DNA of 64,000 bases, from contig JAJDUM010000055.1 of NCBI GenBank assembly GCA_022826645.1, positions 399-64,398 of the forward strand, written 5' to 3'. Position numbers and translations under genes: made by a program. Every line of letters begins with the position of its first letter. Position 1 is the stretch's first letter. Source of the stretch: Candidatus Poribacteria bacterium. Its GTDB lineage: Bacteria; Poribacteria; WGA-4E; PCPOR2b. Positions 379 to 10,424 of the stretch are shown piece after piece. Below the pieces are notes generated by a model. The model made no database searches. It was given only the letters and a program-made list of their open reading frames with translations, and had not been told where the DNA came from.

Positions 379-795
379 TTGCCGTCACTTCTACGCCCGC
401 AGACAGAGAGAAAACCGATGCCCCTTATGGCTGAACCGAACCTCAAGACCGCCCGCCTCGGTGGCGTGGATGTCCCCTCCGCCGATACTCTCAAAACAAG
501 GCACCACAGTTCCTACATTCTCCATGCTCGTGCCGGCAAGTTGAGTGAAATTCTGGTCGAAAAGGTTTTGCTGCCGCCAGATCGCGAGACAAATCCACAA
601 GCAATTCAACTTGTTAAAGCACCTGACAGCACCGTATGCGCCAACCTCGGCAATATCATCTGCAAGGGCAGCGATGGCGGAAGAAGCTGGACGGCGCCCG
701 ATAAGGGTTACTTCCGCGGCGTTTTTGAAGTTCTCAAGGACGGTACGTTCATCGGCTTAGAGAGCGAAGGGGAGCATCCGAACACGAAGGCATAA
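379..795 (+). CDS. Hypothetical protein with one BNR/Asp-box-like motif (start ambiguous: TTG 379 or ATG 418)
   Basis: ORF track; motif SDGGRSW resembles SxDxGxTW; stop lies 2 nt before the next gene. Confidence 0.4.
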   Translation: MPSLLRPQTERKPMPLMAEPNLKTARLGGVDVPSADTLKTRHHSSYILHARAGKLSEILVEKVLLPPDRETNPQAIQLVKAPDSTVCANLGNIICKGSDGGRSWTAPDKGYFRGVFEVLKDGTFIGLESEGEHPNTKA

Positions 796-797
796 GG

Positions 798-1814
798 ATG
801 AGCCAATTAAATCAGGCGATCGAACAGACCGTCAGTGAAACTCGTTTTTCAGGCGTGATTTTCGTTAAACTCGGCGGAAGCATAGAATTCAAAAATGCCT
901 ACGGTTATGCGGATAGGAGCAATAAAATCCCGAATACGGTTGATACCCGTTTTGGGGTAGCGTCAGGAACCAAATTCTTGACTGCGCTTGGAATCGGAAA
1001 GCTGATTGACAGTGGTGAACTCGCTTTAACCTCAAGATTGTGCGACTGCGTAAATATTGATTTTCCACATATATCAGAAGATGTTACGATCGACCATCTC
1101 CTAACCCATACCTCTGGGGTCTACGACTATTACGATGAGGAGCTTATTGAGGATATTGATAATTTTCAGTTGGCTATTCCCTGTTTTGAGCTAAAAGGTC
1201 CGAAGGACTACATACCGTTATTTCGTGATGGGGAGATGAAGTTTAATCCGGGGGAGCGGTTTTCCTATTCAAATGGGGGATTTATTCTATTGGGAATCGT
1301 CATTGAGGAAGTCTCCGGCGTTCCCTATATCGACTTTATACAAAACAATATCCTTGAGTTATGCGGCATGAGCGATTCGGGATTTTTTGCCATGGATCGT
1401 CTGCCAGAACGTACAGCGTTCGGCTATATTGACGAGGAGGACGGGTGGAGAACCAACATTTTTACCTTACCGATCGTCGGATCATCTGATGCGGGGGTTT
1501 TCACGACCGTGGGAGATATGGACAAGTTGTGGGCCGCTTTTTTTAAAGGAAAGATCCTTTCGAAAGAGTTGACCAATCTGTTCTTGAAGAAGACCGTTAA
1601 AGACAAAGACAATAGATTTTATGGGCGTGGTATCTGGATTCACCATGAGGAGGGCAAAGATCCAGTTCACTCTCTCATGGGGTGGGACGCTGGCGTTTCT
1701 TTCAAGAGCACATGTCCGTCGAGGGATTCAGTTATAACGGTGATCTCTAATACGTCCGCTGGTGCATGGGCGGTAGATCGTGAAATCATGAAACAGTTGA
1801 AAATACTGGAATGA
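798..1814 (+). CDS. Serine hydrolase, beta-lactamase/PBP-like family
   Basis: 338-aa ORF; SxxK motif (ASGTKF) near the N-terminus; YSNGGF motif typical of class C beta-lactamase-related esterases. Confidence 0.8.
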   Translation: MSQLNQAIEQTVSETRFSGVIFVKLGGSIEFKNAYGYADRSNKIPNTVDTRFGVASGTKFLTALGIGKLIDSGELALTSRLCDCVNIDFPHISEDVTIDHLLTHTSGVYDYYDEELIEDIDNFQLAIPCFELKGPKDYIPLFRDGEMKFNPGERFSYSNGGFILLGIVIEEVSGVPYIDFIQNNILELCGMSDSGFFAMDRLPERTAFGYIDEEDGWRTNIFTLPIVGSSDAGVFTTVGDMDKLWAAFFKGKILSKELTNLFLKKTVKDKDNRFYGRGIWIHHEEGKDPVHSLMGWDAGVSFKSTCPSRDSVITVISNTSAGAWAVDREIMKQLKILE

Positions 1815-1880
1815 GGGTTACCCTTCGTAGAGTTTACGGGGATTGTGAGCAAAGGATGGGAAAATCCGGGCTATCACCCC

Positions 1881-1909
1881 GGTAGGTGCGGTTTCTAACC
1901 GCACCTACC
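1881..1909. repeat. Palindromic repeat core GGTAGGTGCGGTT-tct-AACCGCACCTACC (copy 1 of 3)
   Basis: 13-bp perfect stem; the 25-nt core GGTAGGTGCGGTTTCTAACCGCACC recurs at 34830-34854 and 36637-36661. Confidence 0.8.
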
Positions 1910-1939
1910 AAACATGGGGAGCGGTGCTTGGGTGCATTT

Positions 1940-2019
1940 AGCCCCAGCGGGGCGACATGTTTATAGCAATGTCGAATCCCTACACACCCAAAGCCCCAGC
2001 GGGGCAACATGTTTATAGC
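1940..2019. repeat. Two copies of a 28-bp direct repeat AGCCCCAGCGGGGC(G/A)ACATGTTTATAGC, period 52 bp
   Basis: Copies at 1940-1967 and 1992-2019 differ at one base; each holds a GCCCC-agc-GGGGC hairpin; the second ends 13 nt before the RM gene ATG. Confidence 0.8.
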
Positions 2020-2032
2020 CTGAACAAAACAG

Positions 2033-5000
2033 ATGAACACCGAAGAAATCAGAAAAAAAGAAGAAATCGAATCCGCCCTGGCGGTCCTATCTACCGGCGA
2101 TTTTTCGGAAAACGCAAAGCACCTGTTAGCCATCTTGGGCTACTGTAGCGAGCGGACCGTGGAACTGCCGGGAACGGCACAGGACTTTATTCAGCGATTC
2201 CCTGCTCAGAACCAAAACACCGAAACAGAACAGGAATTCCTCAACAGCGTGGAATCCGTTAAACTGGTGTTTCAAGTGACAAGCGAGGAAATTGCCCCCA
2301 CTAACCAGCCAACACTGTTTGAATCACCTGCCTTTGATGCGGGATATGTCAGAAGTTTTCTGTTCTTTGCAATCGAATTGACCGATAAAGACTACCCACG
2401 CGGCACATACGCACAGTTTACACGGGAGGTCAACAAACGGTTTATGATGCCGATTGTGGTCCTCTTTCGCGTTGGGAACCGTCTGACCATCGGCTTTGTT
2501 GGTCGCCGTCAACACCAGTATGACCCGGACCGCGATGTGCTGGAACAGGTTACGCTGATTAAGGACATCCGTTTGGATGATCCGCACCGGGCGCATATAG
2601 AGGTTCTATATGAACTAGCACTATGGGAGTGCGCGAAGTGGGTGAACGCCAATAACCGATCAGAAAACTTTGATGGTTTACTTGCGGCGTGGCTTACCCG
2701 ATTGGACACCGAAGAACTCAACAAGAAATTCTACCGGGAACTGTTCGCTTGGTTTGAATGGGCGATTGCTGAAGGGACATTCCCCACAGACAAAAATCGC
2801 ACCTTGAAGTCGGAGGAGCATATCATCCGCTTAATCACGCGCCTACTGTTCGTCTGGTTTATCAAAGAGAAGGGACTAATCGCCGATGCACTGTTCAACG
2901 AGGCGCAAATTTCCCCGTTGCTGAAGGACTACGACCACGACACCGGCGATTCCTACTATCGCGCCGTGCTACAGAACCTGTTTTTTGCTACGCTGAACAC
3001 CGAGATAGAGAAGCGTCGGTTTAGTAAAGGCGGAAACACAGGGCATCGCAATTTCTCGCTGTATCGCTACAAGGATCAGATAACCGCCCCCGATACACTG
3101 TTGACGCTATTTGAGAAAACGCCATTTATCAACGGCGGCTTATTCGACTGCCTCGACAGCGAGGCGGCGACACGCGACGGCGGCTACCGGGTTGACTGCT
3201 TCTCCGATGAACACTACAGAAAGTTGAGCCTCCCCAACCGTCTCTTCTTTGATGAACACCGCGGTCTGATTCCCTTGCTGAAAGGCTACAAGTTCACCGT
3301 TGAGGAAAACACACCGATAGAGCAGGAGGTCGCTTTGGATCCGGAGCTGCTCGGCAAGGTGTTTGAAAACCTACTCGCCGCATATAACCCCGAAACCGGC
3401 GCGACGGCCCGGAAACAGACCGGCTCCTACTACACCCCGCGCCCCATTGTGGACTATATGGTGGAGGAGGCGTTAGTGGCAGCCTTAGCAGCGCAAGTAT
3501 CGCCAACGGACGGAGATGTGCAGTTTTGGGGGGAGCGGTTGCGCTACCTGTTCGACTACGCAAAGGCGTTTGACGATGCGAGCGAATGGTTCAATAGCCG
3601 CGAATCGGATGAGGTGGTGCGGGCGATTTCGGAGTTGAAGATACTCGATCCGGCGGTCGGTTCGGGTGCATTTCCGATGGGGGCACTGCACAAACTGACC
3701 CTCGCACTGCGGCGGCTTGACCCCGATAACACCCGATGGGAGCAGCTACAGAAGGAACGCGCCATCGAACGGGCGGCGGCCGCGTTTGATACGAAGGATA
3801 GACAAACCCGCGACGAGGAGCTCACGGAAATTAGCAGAATCTTTGAGAACTATTCGGGGGACTTCGGACGGAAACTGTACCTGATCCAAAACAGCATCTT
3901 CGGCTTGGACATTCAATCCATCGCCTGCCAAATCGCCAAACTCCGCTTCTTTATCTCGCTTGCCATTGAGCAGGAACCGGATAGAGCCGCAGATAACTTT
4001 GGGATTAAGCCGCTGCCGAATCTGGAGACACGGTTTATCGCAGCGAACACGCTCATCGGTCTTGAGGGGGAACGAACCCTGACCAGCCCCAAAGCGAAGG
4101 CGTTAGAGGTGGAATTGGGCGATAACCGCGAGCGGCATTTCCACGCCACAACACGACCACAGAAACTGGCGTGTAAGCGAGCGGACAAAAAATTGCGGCG
4201 AGCCTTAGCGACGGAATTAAAGCATATCGGGATGCCCGCCGATGATGCGAATAAAGTCGCCGCATGGGACCCCTACGATCAGAACGCAAGCGCCGATTGG
4301 TTTGATCCGGAATGGATGTTTGGTATTGCAGACGGGTTTGATGTGGTGATTGGGAACCCGCCGTATGTCCGCCAAGAAAAAATTAAAGAGCTTAAGCCAA
4401 CGCTGAAGGATCAATACGACTGTTACACCGGCACGGCAGATCTCTATGTCTATTTCTATGAGCGCGGTTTTCAGATGCTTCGAGGCGATGGGGTCTTGAC
4501 CTACATCTCCTCAAACAAGTATTTCCGGTCCGCATACGGTAAGAAACTTCGTGATTTTCTCGCCCGTCAGGCTACTCTATCTCAACTCATCGACTTTGGC
4601 GACGCGCCTGTTTTTACGTCCATTGCGTATCCGAGCATTATCACAGCGTCCAAAACCCTCGCTCAAGGGAACCACCTCCGCGCCCTGAATTGGGAGCCGG
4701 GCCCCTCTATTGACGAATTCGGAACAGTTTTTCGGACAAAGGGGTTCACCATGCCGCAAAACGCCTTGACCGTTGACGGATGGCGACTCGCATCTCCCCC
4801 TGTGTTGAACCTGTTGGAAAAACTCCGCAACGCAGGGACGCCGCTAGGGGAGTATGTCAAAGGACAGCTTTATTCCGGGATCAAAACGGGTTTGAACGAG
4901 GCATTTGTCGTAGACAGGGAGACGCGGGATAGACTTATTGCAGAGCACTCATCATCAGAAGTGTTGAAGCCATTTCTACGTGGGCGCGATGTGAAACGGT

Positions 5001-5638
5001 GGCAGGTGAATTTCGCCGAGCAGTACCTCATCAAAATTGAATCGTCGGAAAACCGAACGCACCCATGGTCAGGGCAGCCTGTGACAGAAGCAGAGCAGCT
5101 TTTCGCTGATACTTATCCCGCCATCCACGCACACTTTAAACCCTTTCGAGAGCCTCTGATCAAGCGATTCGATCAGGGAAAATACTTTTGGGAGTTGCGG
5201 TCATGTGCTTATTGGGAGGAGTTTAAGCAACCGAAGATTGTTTACCCTGATATAGCACAAGGAACGGAGTTTTCCTTTGATGATGGCGGTCATTTTTTAG
5301 GTAACACTTCGTATCTCTTACCAACAAAGGAAATATGGCTTCTCGGCTTACTCAACAGCAAAGCCGTTTTCTGGTTTTACACAAAGACAAGCACACAGAT
5401 TCGGGGTGGGTTTGTAAGGTTTATTGCTCAATATGTGTCTCAAATCCCTATTCCCACTATCAAAACAGCGCAGAAAACATCTATCAGTGAAATGGTTAAT
5501 CAAATCCTTGCTGCCAAACGCACCGACCCGGACGCGGATGTATCCAAACTTGAAAATGAGATCGATCAGATAGTATACTTGTTATACGACTTGACGCCTG
5601 AAGAAATTGATATTGTGGAGGAAGCGGAAAGTGTCTGA
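2033..5638 (+). CDS. Type IIG restriction-modification fusion / Eco57I-family (COG1002-like) N6-adenine DNA methyltransferase with TaqI-like C-terminal specificity domain
   Basis: 1201-aa ORF; SAM motif I ILDPAVGSGAFP; catalytic motif IV VIGNPPYV; TRD-type motif GIKTGLNEAFVV. The N-terminal ~450 aa could be the nuclease, but I could not identify a PD-(D/E)xK motif with confidence. Confidence 0.8.
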   Translation: MNTEEIRKKEEIESALAVLSTGDFSENAKHLLAILGYCSERTVELPGTAQDFIQRFPAQNQNTETEQEFLNSVESVKLVFQVTSEEIAPTNQPTLFESPAFDAGYVRSFLFFAIELTDKDYPRGTYAQFTREVNKRFMMPIVVLFRVGNRLTIGFVGRRQHQYDPDRDVLEQVTLIKDIRLDDPHRAHIEVLYELALWECAKWVNANNRSENFDGLLAAWLTRLDTEELNKKFYRELFAWFEWAIAEGTFPTDKNRTLKSEEHIIRLITRLLFVWFIKEKGLIADALFNEAQISPLLKDYDHDTGDSYYRAVLQNLFFATLNTEIEKRRFSKGGNTGHRNFSLYRYKDQITAPDTLLTLFEKTPFINGGLFDCLDSEAATRDGGYRVDCFSDEHYRKLSLPNRLFFDEHRGLIPLLKGYKFTVEENTPIEQEVALDPELLGKVFENLLAAYNPETGATARKQTGSYYTPRPIVDYMVEEALVAALAAQVSPTDGDVQFWGERLRYLFDYAKAFDDASEWFNSRESDEVVRAISELKILDPAVGSGAFPMGALHKLTLALRRLDPDNTRWEQLQKERAIERAAAAFDTKDRQTRDEELTEISRIFENYSGDFGRKLYLIQNSIFGLDIQSIACQIAKLRFFISLAIEQEPDRAADNFGIKPLPNLETRFIAANTLIGLEGERTLTSPKAKALEVELGDNRERHFHATTRPQKLACKRADKKLRRALATELKHIGMPADDANKVAAWDPYDQNASADWFDPEWMFGIADGFDVVIGNPPYVRQEKIKELKPTLKDQYDCYTGTADLYVYFYERGFQMLRGDGVLTYISSNKYFRSAYGKKLRDFLARQATLSQLIDFGDAPVFTSIAYPSIITASKTLAQGNHLRALNWEPGPSIDEFGTVFRTKGFTMPQNALTVDGWRLASPPVLNLLEKLRNAGTPLGEYVKGQLYSGIKTGLNEAFVVDRETRDRLIAEHSSSEVLKPFLRGRDVKRWQVNFAEQYLIKIESSENRTHPWSGQPVTEAEQLFADTYPAIHAHFKPFREPLIKRFDQGKYFWELRSCAYWEEFKQPKIVYPDIAQGTEFSFDDGGHFLGNTSYLLPTKEIWLLGLLNSKAVFWFYTKTSTQIRGGFVRFIAQYVSQIPIPTIKTAQKTSISEMVNQILAAKRTDPDADVSKLENEIDQIVYLLYDLTPEEIDIVEEAESV

Positions 5639-5733
5639 ATCACGATTTTCAGGATAAGAGCGGATGCCTTCAAAAATCCTGAGAATCCTTGAATCCAGTG
5701 AATCCAGATTCTGACGGTAAGGAAACTAGGGAA

Positions 5734-7563
5734 ATGAATAAAGTTTTTATCTCCTATGTTAGTGAAAATATAGAAATAGTCGAGCGACTCTATCAAGCAC
5801 TCAAATCACACGGGATCGAAGTCTGGCGAGACCGGAATGATATTGCTCCCGGACTCCGATGGAAACGCGAAATTCGGCAGGCTATTCAACAAGGAGCTTT
5901 TTTCATTGCGTGTTTCTCAAAAGAATATGACGAGCGTGATAAGACCTACATGAACGAGGAGCTGACAATTGCAATTGAGGAGTTACGTCAGCGGTCTACT
6001 GACCAAGCTTGGTTTATCCCCGTCAAGTTAAACGAATGCGAAATTCCTGATCGAGACATTGGTGGAGGCGAAACCTTACGCGATCTTCAGTATGTTAATC
6101 TCTATGAAGACTGGGAGTCTAACCTCCAAGATATCCTTAAAGTTGTTCAACCTGCATCATCTAAAACTATAAATGCAGTTACTATCGAATGGTCAGACGA
6201 TTTAAGGGCCGTGGCGGAGTTTTTCAAAGGTCTGACCTATCAAAATAGAAGAAATTATGAAAAAGCCATTGGGCGTTATACAGAAGCATTAAGGTTAAAT
6301 CCACAGATGGTTGAGGCCTATATTAATCGTGGTAATGTATACAGCAGTAGAGGTGAACATAATTTTGCTATTGTCGACTATAACAAAGCGATAGCCTTGA
6401 ATTCTGATGATGCCGACACCTATTACAATCGTGGTTTGGCTCATGGGCAAAAAGGTGATTGTGACCGTGCCATTGCAGATTTTAACATGGCGATACAACT
6501 CAAACCGGATTATGTTGATACCTATTACAACCGCGGTCTAGCTTACGGGCATAAGAGCGATTCTGAGGCTGCCATTGCAGACTTTACTAAGGTGATACAG
6601 CTAAAACCAGATCATGCAAGTGCTTATAATGGTCGTGGTGTTTCTTACCAACAAAAAGGCGATTATGACCGTGCCTTCACAGATTTTAACACGGTGATAC
6701 AACTCAAACAAAACGATGCCATAGCTTACAACAATCGGGGTGGTGTTTACATCAAAAGAGGCGACTATGATCGTGCCATTGCAGACTGTACCAAGGCGAT
6801 ACAACTCGAACCGGATTGTGTTGATACCTATTACAACCGCGGTCTAGCTTACGGGCATAAGAGCGATTCTGAGGCTGCCATTGCAGACTTTACCAAGGTG
6901 ATACAGCTAAAACCAGATCATGCAAGTGCCTATAATGGTCGTGGTATTTCTTACCAAAAAAGAGGCGACTATGACCGTGCCATCGCAGACTATACCAAGG
7001 CGATACAACTGAATCCCAATTATACTGAAGCATATTACAAGCGCGGTCGAACTTACTATGCTAAAAGAGATTATGATCGCGCCATCGCAGACTATACTAA
7101 GGCAATACAACTAAGACCGGATGATATCGGCACCTATTACAATCGTGGTCTAGCTTATGGGCAAAAAGACAATTCTGATGCTGCCATTGCAGATTATAGC
7201 AAGGTGATACAACTCAAACCCAATTATGCCGAAGCCTACAATAATCGTGGGGTGACTTATGACGCAACGGGCGATTATAATCGTGCCATTGCAGATTATA
7301 GCAAGGCGATACAACTGAATCCCGATTATGCCGATGCCTATAATAATCGCGGTGCAGCTTATCACGATAAAGGCGAGCATGCATGGGCCATTGAAGATTT
7401 GGATATGGCGATACAACTTCAACCAGACAATGCTGATGCTTATAAAAATCGCGGGATCATGTGGTTACAGCTGGGAGAACAGGAAAAAGCGAAAGCAGAT
7501 CTAACGGCTGCCAGAAACATGGGGGTAAAACTACCGGCAGACCTCGCTGCAATGTTGCGCTGA
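5734..7563 (+). CDS. TIR domain protein fused to a long TPR array
   Basis: N-terminus VFISYVSENIEIVERLYQALKSHGIEVWRDRNDIAPG...FFIACFSKEY...YMNEEL...WFIPVKL is TIR_2-like. It is followed by about a dozen 34-aa TPR units (AYxNRGxxYxxxGDYDRAIADYxKAIQLxP). The ORF track starts at 5689; ATG 5734 fits the TIR N-terminus better. Confidence 0.85.
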   Translation: MNKVFISYVSENIEIVERLYQALKSHGIEVWRDRNDIAPGLRWKREIRQAIQQGAFFIACFSKEYDERDKTYMNEELTIAIEELRQRSTDQAWFIPVKLNECEIPDRDIGGGETLRDLQYVNLYEDWESNLQDILKVVQPASSKTINAVTIEWSDDLRAVAEFFKGLTYQNRRNYEKAIGRYTEALRLNPQMVEAYINRGNVYSSRGEHNFAIVDYNKAIALNSDDADTYYNRGLAHGQKGDCDRAIADFNMAIQLKPDYVDTYYNRGLAYGHKSDSEAAIADFTKVIQLKPDHASAYNGRGVSYQQKGDYDRAFTDFNTVIQLKQNDAIAYNNRGGVYIKRGDYDRAIADCTKAIQLEPDCVDTYYNRGLAYGHKSDSEAAIADFTKVIQLKPDHASAYNGRGISYQKRGDYDRAIADYTKAIQLNPNYTEAYYKRGRTYYAKRDYDRAIADYTKAIQLRPDDIGTYYNRGLAYGQKDNSDAAIADYSKVIQLKPNYAEAYNNRGVTYDATGDYNRAIADYSKAIQLNPDYADAYNNRGAAYHDKGEHAWAIEDLDMAIQLQPDNADAYKNRGIMWLQLGEQEKAKADLTAARNMGVKLPADLAAMLR

Positions 7564-7679
7564 CACCCCCACAATAAGCATCACCGCCGACGGGTCTTTG
7601 TGAATCCGTGTAATTCCTGAATCCGTGCCAATCCGCAATTACGACAATAAAGGGCAAACAGAACAAAAGAGGGAATACC

Positions 7680-8297
7680 ATGCGAAAAGTAGACCTACAA
7701 CAGCAGGCGGTTGAACTAATCAAACAACTCTCAACAGAAAAACTGAAAGTAGTCGTTGACTATCTGACCTATCTTCAGAATCCAGAAGACTGCGAAGCCG
7801 CGCCCGAATCAGCGAGTGATTTTGAAATCGCCTTAGACGAGATACTAAGAAACTACGATCGAGCATGGAAAGCTCTGGCAAAAGCACCTCAGATAGAAGG
7901 AAGTGCTGTTCACATAGATTTAGATGACTTTGCCCCAAAGAATATAGAGGAGGGGCTGCAAGATATACGGACAGAGGCGGAAGAGGAGAGGAGGCTTGAT
8001 CAGGAGCTAGATGCCATCCCAGAAACGGCTTACAAAGATGTGGAACGGTTTTTGAAAATGATTAACAAATTTGTGCCCCTACCCGATATGATGCCCTTAG
8101 ACAACGGTGAAATCTGTCTCGAATGGCGAGAAGAACAAAAGATATTTACCTTGAGTTTTGGTGGGGACGGGCACATTGTTTTTGCTGGAATCTTTGGCGC
8201 GAATCATCAAGCACGTGGGATACTAACCTTCTCAATGCCTCACCTTATCGCCATTATTGGCATGATTACAAGTCTGTACCTCCACTATGATTATTGA
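7680..8297 (+). CDS. Hypothetical protein with antitoxin-like (DUF2281-type) N-terminal segment and unknown C-terminal domain
   Basis: 205-aa ORF; the first ~35 aa (MRKVDLQQQAVELIKQLSTEKLKVVVDYLTYLQ) are paralogous to the N-terminus of ORF 8690-8920; its stop overlaps the start of the next gene. Confidence 0.55.
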   Translation: MRKVDLQQQAVELIKQLSTEKLKVVVDYLTYLQNPEDCEAAPESASDFEIALDEILRNYDRAWKALAKAPQIEGSAVHIDLDDFAPKNIEEGLQDIRTEAEEERRLDQELDAIPETAYKDVERFLKMINKFVPLPDMMPLDNGEICLEWREEQKIFTLSFGGDGHIVFAGIFGANHQARGILTFSMPHLIAIIGMITSLYLHYDY

Positions 8298-8677
8298 TTC
8301 AAATGAACGCCTCAGTCGTTTTGTACTGAGCAGAAGTGAGTTTCGGCCGTCTGATCAGACCGTTAAGCCTAAAGCATTTGTCCCACCAAAAAACAAAAGA
8401 GGTTCATGTTAAGAAAGCGTGCAACAGCAACTGAATCTTCGTAGGGGTTGGGTTCCCCAACCCTTACGGGCTGCGGGCGGGGAGACCCCGCCCCTACGAT
8501 TTCGATTCGCGTTTTGCGCTTTCTTTTTACATAAGCCACAAAAGATTGTCCGTTTACCGCACTTCAACACTGACCGAAGACGAGGTTTGGTCCATTGGTA
8601 ATGAGTTCGTCGCTCAACCGAGGGGTAGAACCTTGTACGGCCGATCGGATCTTTTTGATATTATACCGTTAGAATAA
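8287..8677 (+). pseudogene. Small gene of unknown function split by a MITE insertion
   Basis: ATG 8287 gives MIIDSNERLSRFVLSRSEFRPSDQTVKPKAFVPPKNKR, then runs into the insertion (stop 8410-8412). Coding resumes at 8546 in another frame: LSVYRTSTLTEDEVWSIGNEFVAQPRGRTLYGRSDLFDIIPLE*. Removing 145 bp (element plus one TSD copy) restores one frame. Confidence 0.6.
8401..8537. mobile_element. 137-bp MITE with ~20-bp terminal inverted repeats and 8-bp target-site duplication
   Basis: Left end GGTTCATGTTAAGAAAGCG; reverse complement of the right end GGCTTATGTAAAAAGAAAGCG; flanking direct repeat ACAAAAGA at 8393-8400 and 8538-8545; the interior holds two GC-rich hairpins. Confidence 0.65.
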
Positions 8678-8689
8678 AAGGGGAACATC

Positions 8690-8920
8690 ATGCAAAGAGT
8701 ATCTCTACAACAACAAGCGGTAGAGCTAATAGAACAACTTTCGACAGAAAAACTGAAAGCAGTCATTGACTATCTGAGCTATCTGCAAGATAAAGAAGCG
8801 TGGGAGGCGACCCAAGAATTAATGGGCGATCCAGAAATCGCTAAGAGCTTAAAACGTGCAGAAGCGGATGTGAAAGCAGGAAGGCTAAAGCGTTGGGAGG
8901 ATGTTAGACAGGACGTTTGA
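8690..8920 (+). CDS. Type II antitoxin-like protein (DUF2281/Phd-YefM-like)
   Basis: 76-aa ORF with a GGGGAA ribosome-binding site; N-terminus paralogous to ORF 7680; C-terminus ...ATQELMGDPEIAKSLKRAEADVKAGRLKRWEDV is typical of small antitoxins; it overlaps a toxin-like start downstream. Confidence 0.6.
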   Translation: MQRVSLQQQAVELIEQLSTEKLKAVIDYLSYLQDKEAWEATQELMGDPEIAKSLKRAEADVKAGRLKRWEDVRQDV

Positions 8921-8960
8921 TGTACAACTCACTAATGAGGCAGCGACACATTTATGTTAA
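8901..8960 (+). pseudogene. Truncated RelE/ParE-like toxin remnant (19 codons)
   Basis: GGAGG then ATG 8901 gives MLDRTFDVQLTNEAATHLC*, overlapping the antitoxin stop as in TA operons. The reading frame ends where a MITE-type terminal sequence (TTATGTTAAAA) begins. Confidence 0.4.
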
Positions 8961-8999
8961 AATAATGATCACATATTGACTGGAGAGCGATTAGGGCGT

Positions 9000-9294
9000 G
9001 TTGACATTTCTAAAGCTATCCGCAATCGTAGGGGCGAGGTTCCCTCGCCCATCGAACAATGTGGGTTGGAAAACCCAAACCATACAGGTTGAATCAATGG
9101 TAGATTGTAGGTCGAGATTCATATCTCGACGCTGAAGCGTCAATTTTGGAAAAATCGACCTACAGAAACCCGATCTCATTCGTGGTCTCGGAACGGACCC
9201 TGACGTGTGAACAAAGGGTTGGGAAACCCAACCCCTACGAAGAATCATGTGTTTGTGCGCCCTCTTGATTGTCTGGTTGCAATGAAATGTCAAC
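9000..9294. repeat. Composite palindromic element bounded by 11-bp inverted repeats (GTTGACATTTC / GAAATGTCAAC)
   Basis: Inverted repeats at 9000-9010 and 9284-9294. The interior holds at least 4 hairpin units (GGGCGAGG-ttc-CCTCGCCC 9032-9050; GTCGAGAT-tcat-ATCTCGAC 9111-9130; GGGTTGGGAAACCCAACCC about 9213). Confidence 0.5.
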
Positions 9295-9400
9295 AGAACC
9301 TAGCTGTAATCCTGAGCCTCCTGATTCAGACAATATGCGTGCCTCTACATAAACACACCACCTCACTAAAACGCACTAAAACGCACACTCAGATAAAAAA

Positions 9401-9539
9401 TATGTGAGGATATGTGATAATACATGAGGATATGTGACATCCTCATCAAGATCAAAGCTAATGCTCATCAACGTCCTGCGACCAGACTTACGAAAATATG
9501 CAAAATATGTGAGAATATGTGACATATTGTGACATCAGG
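9401..9539. repeat. Two clusters of 10-bp phased direct repeats (TGAGGATATG / TGAGAATATG type)
   Basis: Cluster 1 at 9401-9444 (tatgtgagga|tatgtgataa|tacatgagga|tatgtgacat); cluster 2 at 9499-9539 (tgagaatatg|tgacatattg|tgacatcagg); hairpin ATGAGGAT-n7-ATCCTCAT at 9424-9446. Confidence 0.6.
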
Positions 9540-9604
9540 GCGATAAATCGCCCGTCCGGACGCGCAATGAATTGCGCTACTACGAACTGAAGGGTGTAAC
9601 TCCT
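9483..9604. mobile_element. Degenerate short copy of the AGGACTTACGC-type MITE family
   Basis: Ends are CAGACTTACG... and ...GTGTAACTCCT (compare AGGA[C/G]TTACGC / GCGTAAGTCCT). The interior holds the hairpins GGCGATAAATCGCC and GCGCAATgaATTGCGC. Confidence 0.35.
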
Positions 9605-9815
9605 ATATTTCTTAACATGAGCGAACATATTTACGGTCCTTAAAATAAGGAGTGCAGTTTCCTCCCCGCTAAAAGCAACTGATGAGAGGGGAAGAAAGTG
9701 GGCAAAGACAATCGCGTGTTTCCGTTGTTTTTCCCGCTTTCAGTTTTACGCCCCCTCATACTTTCTTACTTACAGTCTTTAAGGTAAGAACGGGGTTTCC
9801 ACTGCGAAGATTTTG

Positions 9816-10424
9816 ATGAAGATTGCAGTATTAGCCTCCGGCAGCGGCACCAATTTACAGGCATTAATCGACCAACTCCACCATGACGAAAATAGTGGGG
9901 TTGAAATCGCTGTAGTGATTAGTGACCGAAGAAAGGCTTACGCGCTCACCCGTGCCGAGGAAGTGGGTATTCCCACCCGTGTGGTGAGGGTGCGAGATTT
10001 TCCGGATCGGGATGCGTTTGATACGGGAATTTCAGAAATCCTTGACGGATATGGCGTGGAGCTAATCGTTCTGGCGGGTTTTATGAAGTTGTTCCAACCG
10101 GCGTTTGTGCGGAAGTATCGGAACCGTATCATCAATATCCATCCCTCCCTACTGCCCGCGTTTCAGGGGGCGCACGCAGTACCCGATACGCTGGCGTATG
10201 GCGTTAAGGTCAGCGGTGTGAGCGTTTTTTTTGTGGATGAAGGGATGGATACGGGACCTATCATCGCCCAAGCCTCGGTGCCTGTATTCGACGATGATAA
10301 TGAAAAAAGCCTGCTCAAGCGGATTCATATTGAAGAACATAAACTGTATCCACAGGTCGTTCGATGGTACGCTGAAGGCAAAATCGAAATTGTTGACAGA
10401 AAGGTCTTGGTAAAGGGTTCGTGA
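9816..10424 (+). CDS. purN: Phosphoribosylglycinamide formyltransferase
   Basis: MKIAVLASGSGTNLQALID N-terminus; NIHPSLLPAFQG motif; length about 200 aa. Confidence 0.9.
   Translation: MKIAVLASGSGTNLQALIDQLHHDENSGVEIAVVISDRRKAYALTRAEEVGIPTRVVRVRDFPDRDAFDTGISEILDGYGVELIVLAGFMKLFQPAFVRKYRNRIINIHPSLLPAFQGAHAVPDTLAYGVKVSGVSVFFVDEGMDTGPIIAQASVPVFDDDNEKSLLKRIHIEEHKLYPQVVRWYAEGKIEIVDRKVLVKGS

What the first reader, a model, noticed from the sequence alone, without database searches (positions are those of the whole stretch)
5734..7563. Intact TIR domain fused directly to a ~dozen-unit TPR array, adjacent to an RM enzyme: candidate one-gene sensor-effector
The first ~140 aa carry TIR_2-like signatures: VFISYVSEN, FFIACFSKEY, YMNEEL (a Glu where the NADase catalytic Glu is expected), and WFIPVKL. 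TPR repeats follow with no NTPase/STAND module, no TM segment and no partner gene. TIR domains act as NAD-consuming or signal-producing effectors in Thoeris, some CBASS and Avs-type systems, and TPR arrays act as ligand sensors in Avs/STAND proteins. A bare TIR-TPR fusion is not, to my knowledge, a validated defence system. Here it lies 95 nt downstream of a Type IIG RM gene, on the same strand, inside a region otherwise filled with TA relics and MITEs. It is one of only two clearly intact defence-type genes in the island (ORF 7680-8297 is also uninterrupted but of unknown function), which suggests it is maintained by selection.
Basis: partly seen in the sequence, partly recalled or inferred. 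Interest (0 to 1): 0.65.

Follow-up and report, generated by a model that had tools for sequence, protein, structure and literature searches.

The report
Restriction-linked TIR-TPR NADase defence gene
An intact TIR-TPR gene in a sponge symbiont (Candidatus Poribacteria) is one member of a large, undescribed cassette family in which a Type IIG-like restriction-modification gene is followed by TPR proteins with interchangeable NAD-processing heads, so it is probably phage defence and not host interaction.

Summary
Window 5734-7563 (+) is an intact 609-aa ORF with a TIR_2 domain (E 2e-25), twelve in-register 34-aa TPRs and a short C-terminal tail. It has no NTPase and no TM segment. It lies 95 nt downstream of an intact Type IIG-like RM gene.

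The TIR fold is confirmed (AF2 pLDDT 81). The best structural matches are SPARTA, PdTIR, AbTir and SARM1. E76 aligns with Roq1 residue 86, recalled as its catalytic Glu, and is nearly invariant.

- A single-protein TIR+TPR system ("TIR-II") was validated in E. coli in 2024.
- The gene is not partnerless.

The source is Candidatus Poribacteria. The RM belongs to a much-expanded family (346 hits). In 52 of 80 loci it is followed on the same strand by a TPR ORF; only 4 of 80 have one upstream. The N-terminal head of that ORF is modular: two TIR types, FRG (ART superfamily), weak DrHyd-like+TIR, or none. Most share a conserved C-terminal tail.

RMs 84-94% identical carry different heads. The cassette also occurs on Nitrospirales and Caldilineaceae chromosomes.

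Best reading: an NAD-depleting abortive-infection module coupled to an RM. Whether it guards the RM is untested.

The parts
2033..5638 (+). Type IIG-like restriction-modification gene (1201 aa), first gene of the cassette
   Evidence: Pfam Eco57I E 7e-39 and TaqI_C E 1e-17. PADLOC REase_MTase_IIG E 3e-107. NPPY at aa 775 and VGSGAF at aa 542; dN/dS 0.11-0.12. Not a BREX PglX: scores are far below the cut-offs. The N-terminal 200 aa are conserved in 69 paralogues, but no PD-ExK motif was recognised.
5672..5715 (+). Junction element type 1: roughly 9-nt periodic AATCC units ending GATTCTGAC, 18 nt upstream of the TIR-TPR start codon
   Evidence: TRF finds period 9 x3.6. The strict pattern occurs at one place in 64 kb, with 0 expected. 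It occurs in 40 of 114 related loci, almost always on the cassette strand at gene junctions. No Rfam match.
5734..6156 (+). TIR domain (aa 1-141); predicted catalytic Glu E76 = codon 5959-5961; BB-loop DRNDIAPG aa 33-40
   Evidence: TIR_2 E 2e-25. AF2 pLDDT 81, pTM 0.75. Foldseek matches SPARTA TIR-APAZ at E 6e-7, then PdTIR, BtTir, AbTir, SARM1. E76 aligns with Roq1 residue 86. E75 and E76 are at least 90% conserved and G40 is invariant in 43 homologues.
6157..6207 (+). Flexible linker (aa 142-158)
   Evidence: pLDDT below 50 for aa 142-165 in the AF2 model.
6208..7431 (+). Array of 12 TPRs (aa 159-566), perfect 34-aa register, with a recent 3-repeat (306-nt) duplication
   Evidence: Repeat 4 (6514-6615) and repeat 7 (6820-6921) are 101/102 nt identical. 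The most variable repeat positions are 13, 12, 9, 2 and 34. Regex motif count in TIR_A-anchored ORFs is 0-23; Pfam TPR_1 stretches are 1-24.
7432..7563 (+). C-terminal capping repeat and family tail (...WLQLGEQEKAKADLTAARNMGVKLPADLAAMLR*), a short variant of the conserved tail
   Evidence: The tail motif ...LPxDIAAMLTP lies within the last 25 aa in 36 of 52 RM-linked TPR ORFs whatever their head. Only 1 of 62 window ORFs of at least 150 aa has it.
7597..7646 (+). Junction element type 2 (degenerate copy): TTTGTGAATCCGTGTAATTCCTGAATCCGTGCCAATCCGCAATTACGACA
   Evidence: Alignment of 53 instances. Metatranscriptome contigs join 5715->7579 and 7647->5673, so in other loci the two elements lie next to each other with no gene between.
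7680..8297 (+). orf205: cassette-associated protein of unknown fold, a mosaic of modules that are fused to TPR proteins elsewhere
   Evidence: No Pfam or NCBIfam family above a curated cut-off. Homologues are standalone or fused to TPR arrays, e.g. P0136, P0138, P0141, P0144. Its C-domain forms the C-terminus of TPR proteins in L037 and L048; its middle segment is fused after the tail in L043, L084, L088 and L092. AF2 pLDDT 64; no significant fold match.
8690..8920 (+). orf76: small protein sharing its N-terminal ~50 aa with orf205 (antitoxin-like by appearance only)
   Evidence: 67% identity over 51 aa with the orf205 N-terminus. It recurs downstream of X-TPR genes in more than 20 RM loci. 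No family hit.

Best explanation
The gene encodes a cytoplasmic, autoinhibited NADase sensor-effector. The N-terminal TIR domain, with catalytic Glu E76, is the effector. The 12-unit TPR superhelix is the protein-binding sensor and regulatory module. It is the second gene of a recurrent cassette: a Type IIG-like RM gene, then one to three [NAD-processing head]-TPR-tail genes, then small accessory ORFs such as orf205.

Proposed mechanism:
1. The RM provides first-line restriction of unmethylated DNA.
2. When infection proceeds anyway, a protein ligand engages the concave face of the TPR array.
3. The protein oligomerises, and TIR domains assemble head to tail into composite active sites.
4. NAD+ is hydrolysed, and growth arrest or cell death aborts the infection.

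Shown here: domain architecture, TIR fold, conserved catalytic and BB-loop residues, purifying selection, conserved same-strand linkage to the RM, modular exchange of NAD-processing heads, and cross-phylum co-transfer.

Inferred: NADase activity, activation by oligomerisation, the nature of the trigger, co-transcription, and the anti-phage phenotype.

I put about 0.6 on 'defence NADase that works as part of an RM-linked cassette'. Within that, I put about one third on the trigger being the state of the RM itself (guarding) and not a phage protein sensed directly.
For: **Effector.**
- TIR_2 E 2e-25. AF2 model pLDDT 81.
- The closest folds are NADase TIRs: SPARTA, PdTIR, AbTir, SARM1.
- E76 aligns with Roq1 residue 86. 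E75, E76, P39 and G40 are at least 90% conserved or invariant.
- dN/dS is 0.14-0.36.

**Sensor.**
- 12 in-register TPRs whose variability peaks at positions 13, 12, 9 and 2.
- Rapid copy-number change: regex motif count 0-23, Pfam TPR_1 stretches 1-24. One duplication is 101/102 nt identical.

**Linkage to the RM.**
- TIR_A-anchored: the RM is upstream on the same strand in L001-L004, L007 and L008. RM identity falls from 93% to 38%, and only L001 shares the window's other flanks.
- RM-anchored: a TPR ORF lies downstream on the same strand in 52 of 80 loci and upstream in 4 of 80. Fisher p = 1.5e-16 with equal flank lengths. Gaps are often 0-300 nt.
- FRG-anchored: 79 of 80 heads are fused to TPRs. 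The RM is upstream on the same strand in 37 of 80 and on the opposite strand in 0 of 80.

**Functionally equivalent heads.**
- Heads are two TIR_2 types, FRG, weak Nuc_deoxyrib_tr-like+TIR, or weak HEPN+FRG.
- FRG is an ART-superfamily predicted NADase effector (PMC9503650).
- RMs 84-94% identical carry different heads.

**Co-transfer.** On a Nitrospirales chromosome, L172 has an RM at 439-4137 and a 603-aa ORF with TIR_B and TPR hits starting at 4134, a 4-nt overlap. Two ORFs with FRG and TPR hits follow. Caldilineaceae L167 is similar.

**Precedent.**
- Single-protein TIR+TPR 'TIR-II' protects E. coli and needs the TIR active site (PMC11350192).
- RM guardian systems PrrC and PARIS (PMC12707154).
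Against: - No biochemical or phenotypic data exist for this protein or any close relative.
- PADLOC has no system-level model; hits are domain-level only.
- Co-transcription with the RM is not shown. The RNA contigs found come from paralogues at 85-95% identity. The promoter and terminator scans were uninformative.
- Linkage is frequent but not obligatory. 28 of 80 RM loci have no downstream TPR ORF, and 43 of 80 FRG-TPR genes have no RM within 6 kb upstream. L009-L011 keep long TIR-TPR ORFs next to RM fragments only.
- Loci are paralogues and orthologues, so the counts are not independent events.
- The RM's nuclease domain was not recognised.
- The TPR array is close to the consensus TPR, so a generic scaffold role cannot be excluded.
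Confidence: 0.6

Rival explanations
1. RM guardian, a stronger form of the best explanation. The conserved C-terminal tail or the TPR array docks on the Type IIG enzyme and holds the NADase latent. Inhibition of the RM by an anti-restriction protein, or engagement of the RM with unmodified DNA, releases or assembles the NADase. This would be analogous to PrrC with EcoprrI.
For: - Same-strand, often abutting or overlapping gene pairs.
- Constant elements across the family are the RM and the C-terminal tail. The heads and the TPR number vary.
- Co-transfer across phyla.
- Guardian precedent (PMC12707154).
Against: - About half of the FRG-TPR genes lack an adjacent RM.
- TIR-TPR ORFs persist beside RM remnants.
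- No homology to PrrC or AriAB.
- No interaction evidence; a complex prediction was not possible with these tools.
Confidence: 0.22
2. Independent single-gene abortive-infection system of the TIR-II type. It sits next to the RM only because both ride in the same mobile, recombining cassette array marked by the AATCC junction elements, with no functional coupling.
For: - TIR-II works as a single protein in E. coli.
- Each cassette gene carries its own copy of the junction element.
- Empty junctions exist.
- Cassette dS (0.28-0.33) is lower than flank dS (0.46-0.93), which suggests exchange.
- Many X-TPR genes occur without an RM.
Against: - The orientation and position bias is extreme: 52 downstream against 4 upstream, and 37 same-strand against 0 opposite.
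- The 4-nt start/stop overlap in L172, and gaps of 0 in five loci, suggest translational coupling.
- The pairing persists through head swaps and transfer between phyla.
Confidence: 0.3
3. Signal generator rather than NAD depleter. The TIR makes a cADPR-isomer-type nucleotide that activates a separate effector, as in Thoeris or BcTir/Tpr. orf205 or another cassette gene would be the receiver.
For: - TIR domains in Thoeris and the DrHyd-TPR protein BcTpr make cADPR isomers (bioRxiv 10.1101/2023.05.26.542521).
- orf205 modules are fused to TPR proteins elsewhere, a Rosetta-stone link.
Against: - No SLOG, SIR2, Macro, SAVED or other known nucleotide-sensor domain lies within 1-11.4 kb.
- orf205 has no recognisable fold.
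- The closest TIR folds, SPARTA and SARM1, are depleters.
Confidence: 0.1
4. Eukaryote-like repeat protein for host interaction. The TIR-TPR protein is delivered to sponge cells, where it interferes with TIR-dependent innate immunity or phagocytosis. TPR enrichment in Poribacteria is usually interpreted this way.
For: - TPRs are the most frequent 'eukaryote-like' repeat in Poribacteria and are postulated to mediate host interaction (PMC3909097; PMC11706023).
- Bacterial TIR proteins such as BtpA are structurally similar.
Against: - No signal peptide or TM segment; the TIR beta-A strand starts at residue 3.
- Operon-like linkage to an RM gene.
- Heads are exchanged with FRG/ART modules typical of prokaryotic immunity.
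- No secretion genes nearby.
Confidence: 0.06

Closest known systems
E. coli TIR-II defence system (single protein with TIR and TPR domains; PMC11350192)
   Same: TIR and TPR lie in one polypeptide, in many members without an NTPase. TIR-II is experimentally anti-phage, depends on the TIR active-site residue, and acts by growth arrest or cell death. It is described as the most abundant and widespread of that study's TIR systems.
   Different: No RM linkage, head modularity or conserved C-terminal tail is reported for TIR-II. The trigger of TIR-II is unknown, since no escape phages were obtained.
BcTir/Tpr system of Bacillus cereus (bioRxiv 10.1101/2023.05.26.542521)
   Same: A TPR array fused to an N-terminal NAD+-cleaving head. 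The TPR controls product and activity. A TIR is part of the system. It is anti-phage. L082 in this family has a weak deoxyribosyltransferase-like match plus TIR plus TPR.
   Different: BcTir/Tpr is a two-gene system. The NADase head is a glycosidase, not a TIR, and BcTir is a separate, catalytically silent protein. No RM partner is described.
SPARTA (short pAgo with TIR-APAZ)
   Same: The closest solved TIR folds: Foldseek E 6e-7, 22-28% identity. The Glu sits at a similar position. In SPARTA the NADase switches on when a separate nucleic-acid-recognising partner triggers oligomerisation; that activation mechanism comes from established knowledge.
   Different: No APAZ or Argonaute is present here. 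The regulatory module is a TPR array and the neighbour is an RM enzyme.
RM guardian systems PrrC-EcoprrI and PARIS (PMC12707154)
   Same: An abortive-infection effector that is genetically embedded in or associated with restriction systems and acts as a second layer when restriction is countered.
   Different: There is no homology. PrrC and AriB are tRNA nucleases, not NADases. Guarding is untested here.
Avs / STAND NTPase sensors and Thoeris
   Same: Avs-type proteins use TPR-like repeat sensors, and both groups use TIR effectors. There are domain-level PADLOC hits.
   Different: No STAND NTPase is present. No ThsA-type SIR2/Macro-SLOG partner lies within 11 kb.

Membership tests
TIR-domain NADases (Pfam TIR_2, PF13676) | Flavodoxin-like TIR fold | tested here: met
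   TIR_2 E 2.2e-25, 89.9 bits against a cut-off of 28. AF2 pLDDT 81. 62 PDB matches at E <= 1e-3; the 50 listed are TIR or SEFIR-type domains.
TIR-domain NADases (Pfam TIR_2, PF13676) | Catalytic glutamate at the conserved position | tested here: met
   YMNEEL aligns with Roq1 WCLEEL, so E76 matches Roq1 residue 86. That this residue is Roq1's catalytic Glu comes from prior knowledge. E75 and E76 are at least 90% conserved in 43 homologues.
TIR-domain NADases (Pfam TIR_2, PF13676) | BB-loop used for head-to-tail assembly | tested here: met
   DRNDIAPG lies between beta-B and alpha-B. G40 is invariant and P39 is at least 90% conserved. This is sequence-level evidence only.
TIR-domain NADases (Pfam TIR_2, PF13676) | NAD+ hydrolase or cyclase activity | not testable with these tools
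   Needs an enzyme assay with and without E76A.
E. coli TIR-II (single-protein TIR+TPR defence) | TIR and TPR in one protein | tested here: met
.
E. coli TIR-II (single-protein TIR+TPR defence) | Sequence homology to the validated E. coli protein | not tested
   The sequence is not in the held text and no supplements are held.
E. coli TIR-II (single-protein TIR+TPR defence) | Anti-phage phenotype that depends on the TIR active site | not testable with these tools
   Experimental.
Thoeris | ThsA partner (SIR2 or Macro/TM with a SLOG sensor) next to the TIR gene | tested here: not met
   No such domain in any ORF scanned within 1-11.4 kb. There is only a weak ThsB hit, E 0.004.
Avs / STAND antiviral NTPases | Central STAND NTPase between the effector and the repeat sensor | tested here: not met
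   Only TIR and TPR families were found. The linker is 17 aa.
BcTir/Tpr | Separate TIR gene plus a glycosidase(DrHyd-like)-TPR gene | tested here: not met
   In the window the TIR is fused to the TPR and no DrHyd domain is present. A relative, L082, has a weak Nuc_deoxyrib_tr match (E 2.8e-4, below the cut-off) before TIR-TPR.
RM guardian systems (PrrC/PARIS type) | Genetic embedding in or next to an RM locus | tested here: met
   95 nt downstream on the same strand. The arrangement is conserved: 52 of 80, and 37 against 0 for orientation.
RM guardian systems (PrrC/PARIS type) | Effector latent until the RM is inhibited | not testable with these tools
   Needs co-expression with anti-restriction proteins and interaction assays.
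Type IIG RM enzymes (for the upstream partner gene) | N6-adenine MTase motifs and a TaqI-like target recognition domain in one polypeptide | tested here: met
   Eco57I and TaqI_C. NPPY at aa 775 and VGSGAF at aa 542. BseCI and TaqI MTase matches.
Type IIG RM enzymes (for the upstream partner gene) | N-terminal PD-(D/E)xK endonuclease domain | tested here: inconclusive
   Colinear with Type IIG profiles from about aa 218. The first 200 aa are conserved in 69 paralogues, but no recognisable motif was found.
Sponge-symbiont eukaryote-like proteins acting on the host | Export signal or surface location | tested here: not met
   No hydrophobic segment; the N-terminus is the first TIR strand. Non-classical secretion cannot be excluded.

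The most novel reading that the evidence does not exclude
The Type IIG-like enzyme and the [NADase head]-TPR-tail proteins form one physically coupled immune machine. The conserved C-terminal tail or the TPR array docks on the RM. The interchangeable TIR, FRG or DrHyd-like head then fires according to the state of the RM, either blocked by anti-restriction proteins or engaged on unmethylated DNA. This would be an RM-guard or RM-sensor system with polymorphic NAD-depleting effectors. It has been amplified to six or more copies per genome and exchanged between sponge-symbiont phyla. A corollary is that part of the well-known 'eukaryote-like' TPR enrichment of Poribacteria reflects phage defence, not host interaction.
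Probability: 0.22. Interest if true: 0.8.

Novelty: new variant of a known kind. Interest (0 to 1): 0.6.

Why it matters
Taken alone, the gene is a new member of a known kind: single-protein TIR+TPR defence. Three things around it appear to be undescribed in the literature I could search.

1. **A cassette rule.** A Type IIG-like RM gene is followed on the same strand by TPR proteins whose N-terminal heads are swapped among NAD-processing domains (TIR, FRG/ART, DrHyd-like). They share a conserved tail and conserved junction elements.

2. **A testable coupling.** The rule suggests a way to ask how a second-layer abortive-infection effector is tied to restriction, using a TIR NADase in place of the classical tRNA nucleases.

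3. **A reinterpretation for sponge microbiology.** TPR proteins are the most frequent 'eukaryote-like' repeat class in Poribacteria and are conventionally read as host-interaction factors. Hundreds of them sit in RM-linked cassettes: 346 RM-family and 444 FRG-head stretches were found in species-representative genomes.

The FRG-TPR members also provide a natural context for testing the predicted NADase function of the FRG domain.

Tried and rejected
- **Cyanobacterial or MITE framing.** Rejected. The closest loci are all Candidatus Poribacteria.
- **First junction-motif pattern (GAATCCNKTGAATCC).** Not significant: 4 matches against 1.4 expected. A refined periodic pattern was significant.
- **Rfam on 5400-9900.** No match.
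- **Promoter and terminator scan.** Counts were at or below shuffle expectation, so it was uninformative.
- **Phage collection (tblastn).** Only weak TPR-only or TIR-only hits, with no TIR-TPR relative.
- **Metatranscriptomes.** Only paralogous contigs at 85-95% identity. These show that related cassettes are transcribed in sponges, but they do not show co-transcription at this locus.
- **orf205 fold.** AF2 pLDDT 64. The best Foldseek hit is the immunity protein TriTu of an ART toxin at E 0.17, which is not significant and is kept only as a lead.
- **NCBIfam.** Only generic TPR families for TIR-TPR, including a spurious MamA hit above its cut-off caused by the repeats. Nothing for the small ORFs.
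- **Papers not available.** Burroughs & Aravind 2020 (PMC7685563) is not held. No supplements of the TIR-II paper are held. Homology to TIR-II and any earlier mention of FRG-TPR contexts could therefore not be checked.
- **Minus-strand ORFs inside the array** (6295-6498, 6601-6804, 6907-7110, each 67 aa). These are periodic artefacts of the repeat.
- **Thoeris, Avs and BREX membership.** Rejected on missing defining components.
Full report
**1. Observation**

Window 5734-7563 (+) is an uninterrupted 609-aa ORF. Pfam finds TIR_2 at aa 4-134 (E 2.2e-25) and twelve TPR_1 units (E 2e-121), and nothing else. The array is in perfect 34-aa register from aa 159 to 566, followed by a capping repeat and a short tail. 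There is no hydrophobic segment.

The upstream gene 2033-5638 (+) is a 1201-aa Type IIG-like RM. It has Eco57I and TaqI_C domains and matches PADLOC REase_MTase_IIG at E 3e-107. It keeps NPPY and VGSGAF motifs and has dN/dS 0.11-0.12. The intergenic gap is 95 nt.

**2. The TIR domain**

An alignment of 43 homologues shows E75 and E76, P39 and G40 conserved at 90% or more, or invariant. The AlphaFold model of aa 1-165 has pLDDT 81 and pTM 0.75, with a disordered linker at aa 142-165. Foldseek against the PDB returns only TIR-type domains. SPARTA TIR-APAZ comes first (E 6e-7, 22-28% identity), followed by PdTIR, BtTir, BtpA, SARM1, AbTir and Cat1.

Profile and single-sequence alignments place YMNEEL on Roq1 WCLEEL, so E76 matches Roq1 residue 86. 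That this residue is Roq1's catalytic Glu is from prior knowledge. dN/dS of the TIR domain against eight orthologues is 0.14-0.36.

**3. Source organism**

The closest loci in species-representative genomes are all Candidatus Poribacteria, which are sponge symbionts. The DNA is held almost completely (0.99 of sampled words) by a sponge metagenome run. L001 is the syntenic orthologous locus: beta-lactamase-family gene, RM at 93%, TIR at 84%, purN, and so on.

**4. The gene is part of a cassette family**

*Starting from the TIR.* The RM family lies upstream on the same strand in L001-L004, L007 and L008. RM identity falls from 93% to 38%, and only L001 shares the window's other flanks. L009-L011 have RM fragments.

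*Starting from the RM.* There are 346 matching stretches, with up to six or more copies per genome. Among the best 80 loci, a TPR ORF lies downstream on the same strand in 52. It lies upstream on the same strand in 4, upstream on the opposite strand in 2, and downstream on the opposite strand in 0. Flank lengths are equal, about 500 kb each side, and Fisher p = 1.5e-16. Gaps are often 0-300 nt.

*The heads.* Pfam shows the N-terminal head of these TPR proteins is modular:
- the window's TIR_2 type;
- a second TIR_2 type;
- FRG (PF08867);
- a weak deoxyribosyltransferase-like match plus TIR;
- a weak HEPN match plus FRG;
- or no head.

FRG is assigned to the ADP-ribosyltransferase superfamily and is predicted to be an antiviral NADase effector (PMC9503650). 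The alternative heads are therefore all NAD-processing modules. Many loci carry two or three such genes in tandem. RMs that are 84-94% identical carry different heads, so heads are exchanged quickly.

*Starting from FRG.* There are 444 stretches. 79 of the best 80 are fused to TPRs. The RM is upstream on the same strand in 37 and on the opposite strand in 0.

*Other phyla.* The arrangement also occurs on complete chromosomes outside Poribacteria. In Nitrospirales L172 the RM is at 439-4137. A 603-aa ORF with TIR_B and TPR hits starts at 4134, a 4-nt overlap, and two ORFs with FRG and TPR hits follow. Caldilineaceae L167 and L162 are similar.

**5. Family-defining features beyond TPRs**

Most of these proteins, whatever their head, end in a conserved module...WLxLxEWEKAKxDLTxAxxMG...LPxDIAAMLTP. 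The window has a short variant, NMGVKLPADLAAMLR*. The motif lies in the last 25 residues in 36 of 52 RM-linked ORFs, and in 1 of 62 long ORFs of the window.

Cassette genes are separated by conserved elements of about 50 nt, built of roughly 9-nt periodic AATCC units. One form lies 20-30 nt upstream of start codons, at window 5672-5715. Another follows stop codons, with a degenerate copy at 7597-7646. The strict pattern occurs at one place in the 64-kb window, with none expected. It occurs in 40 of 114 related loci, almost always on the cassette strand.

The downstream ORF 7680-8297 has no family above a curated cut-off and no significant fold match. Its modules are fused to TPR proteins in other loci, which ties it to the cassette.

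The window holds no other copy of any cassette component. TPR arrays are therefore not a pervasive background.

**6. The TPR array**

Repeat-to-repeat variability peaks at positions 13, 12, 9, 2 and 34. From general knowledge of TPR structure, positions 2, 9, 12 and 13 lie on the helix-A concave face that canonical TPRs use for binding.

Repeat number varies widely. The regex motif count in TIR_A-anchored ORFs runs from 0 to 23, and Pfam counts 1-24 TPR_1 stretches. The window has a three-repeat duplication whose first unit is 101/102 nt identical.

**7. Comparison with known systems**

A single-protein TIR+TPR system, TIR-II, protects E. coli in a way that depends on the TIR active site (PMC11350192).

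BcTir/Tpr couples a glycosidase-TPR NADase with a separate TIR gene. Thoeris, Avs and BREX are excluded because defining components are missing. RM guardian systems, PrrC and PARIS, are a functional precedent without homology.

I found no paper describing an RM-linked NADase-TPR cassette or the poribacterial expansion. Kamke et al. 2014 treat poribacterial TPRs as eukaryote-like host-interaction proteins and mention neither TIR nor RM.

**8. Interpretation**

The most likely function is an NAD-depleting abortive-infection sensor-effector that operates as the second layer of an RM cassette. The trigger is unknown. The conserved RM partner and the conserved tail make an RM-state sensor (guard) plausible. 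However, many family members lack an adjacent RM, and no interaction data exist.

The RM's endonuclease domain was not recognised. It therefore remains open whether the partner restricts DNA itself.

The host-interaction reading is disfavoured by the lack of export signals and by the RM and ART context.

**9. Limits**

- All evidence is computational.
- Loci are related by descent, so the counts overstate the number of independent events.
- Only the best 80 loci per scan were examined.
- RNA evidence is from paralogues only.
- Homology to E. coli TIR-II could not be tested.

Noticed in passing
window 5672-5715 and 7597-7646; L060 10792-11103; 40 of 114 loci: A conserved element of about 50 nt, built of roughly 9-nt periodic AATCC units ending GATTCAGACA, marks the junctions between cassette genes. 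One form lies 20-30 nt upstream of start codons and the other follows stop codons. L060 has a tandem array of them. Metatranscriptome contigs show 'empty' junctions where the two forms are adjacent. There is no Rfam match. The function is unknown; it could be a promoter or operator, a 5' UTR element, or a recombination site.
   Followed up: partly
window 7680-8297 and 8690-8920; L037 10875-12677; L048 10958-12724: orf205 and orf76 share an N-terminal module of about 50 aa (LQQQAVELIxQLSTEKLKxVxDYLxYLQ). The orf205 C-terminal domain has no Pfam family and no significant fold match. It forms the C-terminus of TPR proteins in L037 and L048, and its middle segment is fused after the family tail in L043, L084, L088 and L092.
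   Followed up: partly
Genome-contig scan; e.g. OZ240244.1, OZ244042.1: The Type IIG-like RM family is greatly expanded in Poribacteria: 346 matching stretches in species-representative genomes and six or more paralogues in single chromosomes.
   Followed up: partly
window 2033-7563 against L001: Synonymous divergence of the RM (0.33) and the TIR domain (0.28) against the syntenic relative is lower than that of the flanking housekeeping genes (0.46-0.93). This suggests recent exchange or gene conversion of the cassette.
   Followed up: no
window 2033-2632 (RM aa 1-200): The N-terminal 200 aa of the RM are conserved across 69 paralogues but match no nuclease profile and show no obvious PD-(D/E)xK motif. 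Endonuclease activity of this family is unverified.
   Followed up: partly
L012, L013, L016-L020, L022-L024 (about 456-479 aa ORFs): A second poribacterial TIR subfamily of constant length, with a conserved N-terminal extension (EVEFDYEAYTRDNAPD...) and, in L012, the one member scanned, no Pfam family in its C-terminal half. It has no RM of this family upstream on the same strand. A similar FDY-AY motif starts some head-less TPR proteins (L037, L048) and the L102 ORF.
   Followed up: no
L006 2563-4005; L009 10001-12391; L002 10001-12868; L010 9992-14032: Architectural variants were seen. L006 and L009 have two TIR domains before the TPRs. The L002 ORF runs on into a TaqI_C-like domain. The L010 ORF (1346 aa, 24 TPR_1 stretches) ends in a UPF0175 antitoxin-like domain.
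   Followed up: no
L156, L163, L181, L193 (Latescibacterota); L161, L164 (Binatia); L176 (Chloroflexota): FRG-TPR genes 52-55% identical to poribacterial ones occur in several other phyla, here without this RM family within 6 kb upstream. This suggests transfer between phyla among co-resident bacteria.
   Followed up: partly
window 6295-6498, 6601-6804, 6907-7110 (minus strand): Three evenly spaced 67-aa minus-strand ORFs lie inside the TPR array, 306 nt apart. They are by-products of the repeat and not genes.
   Followed up: yes
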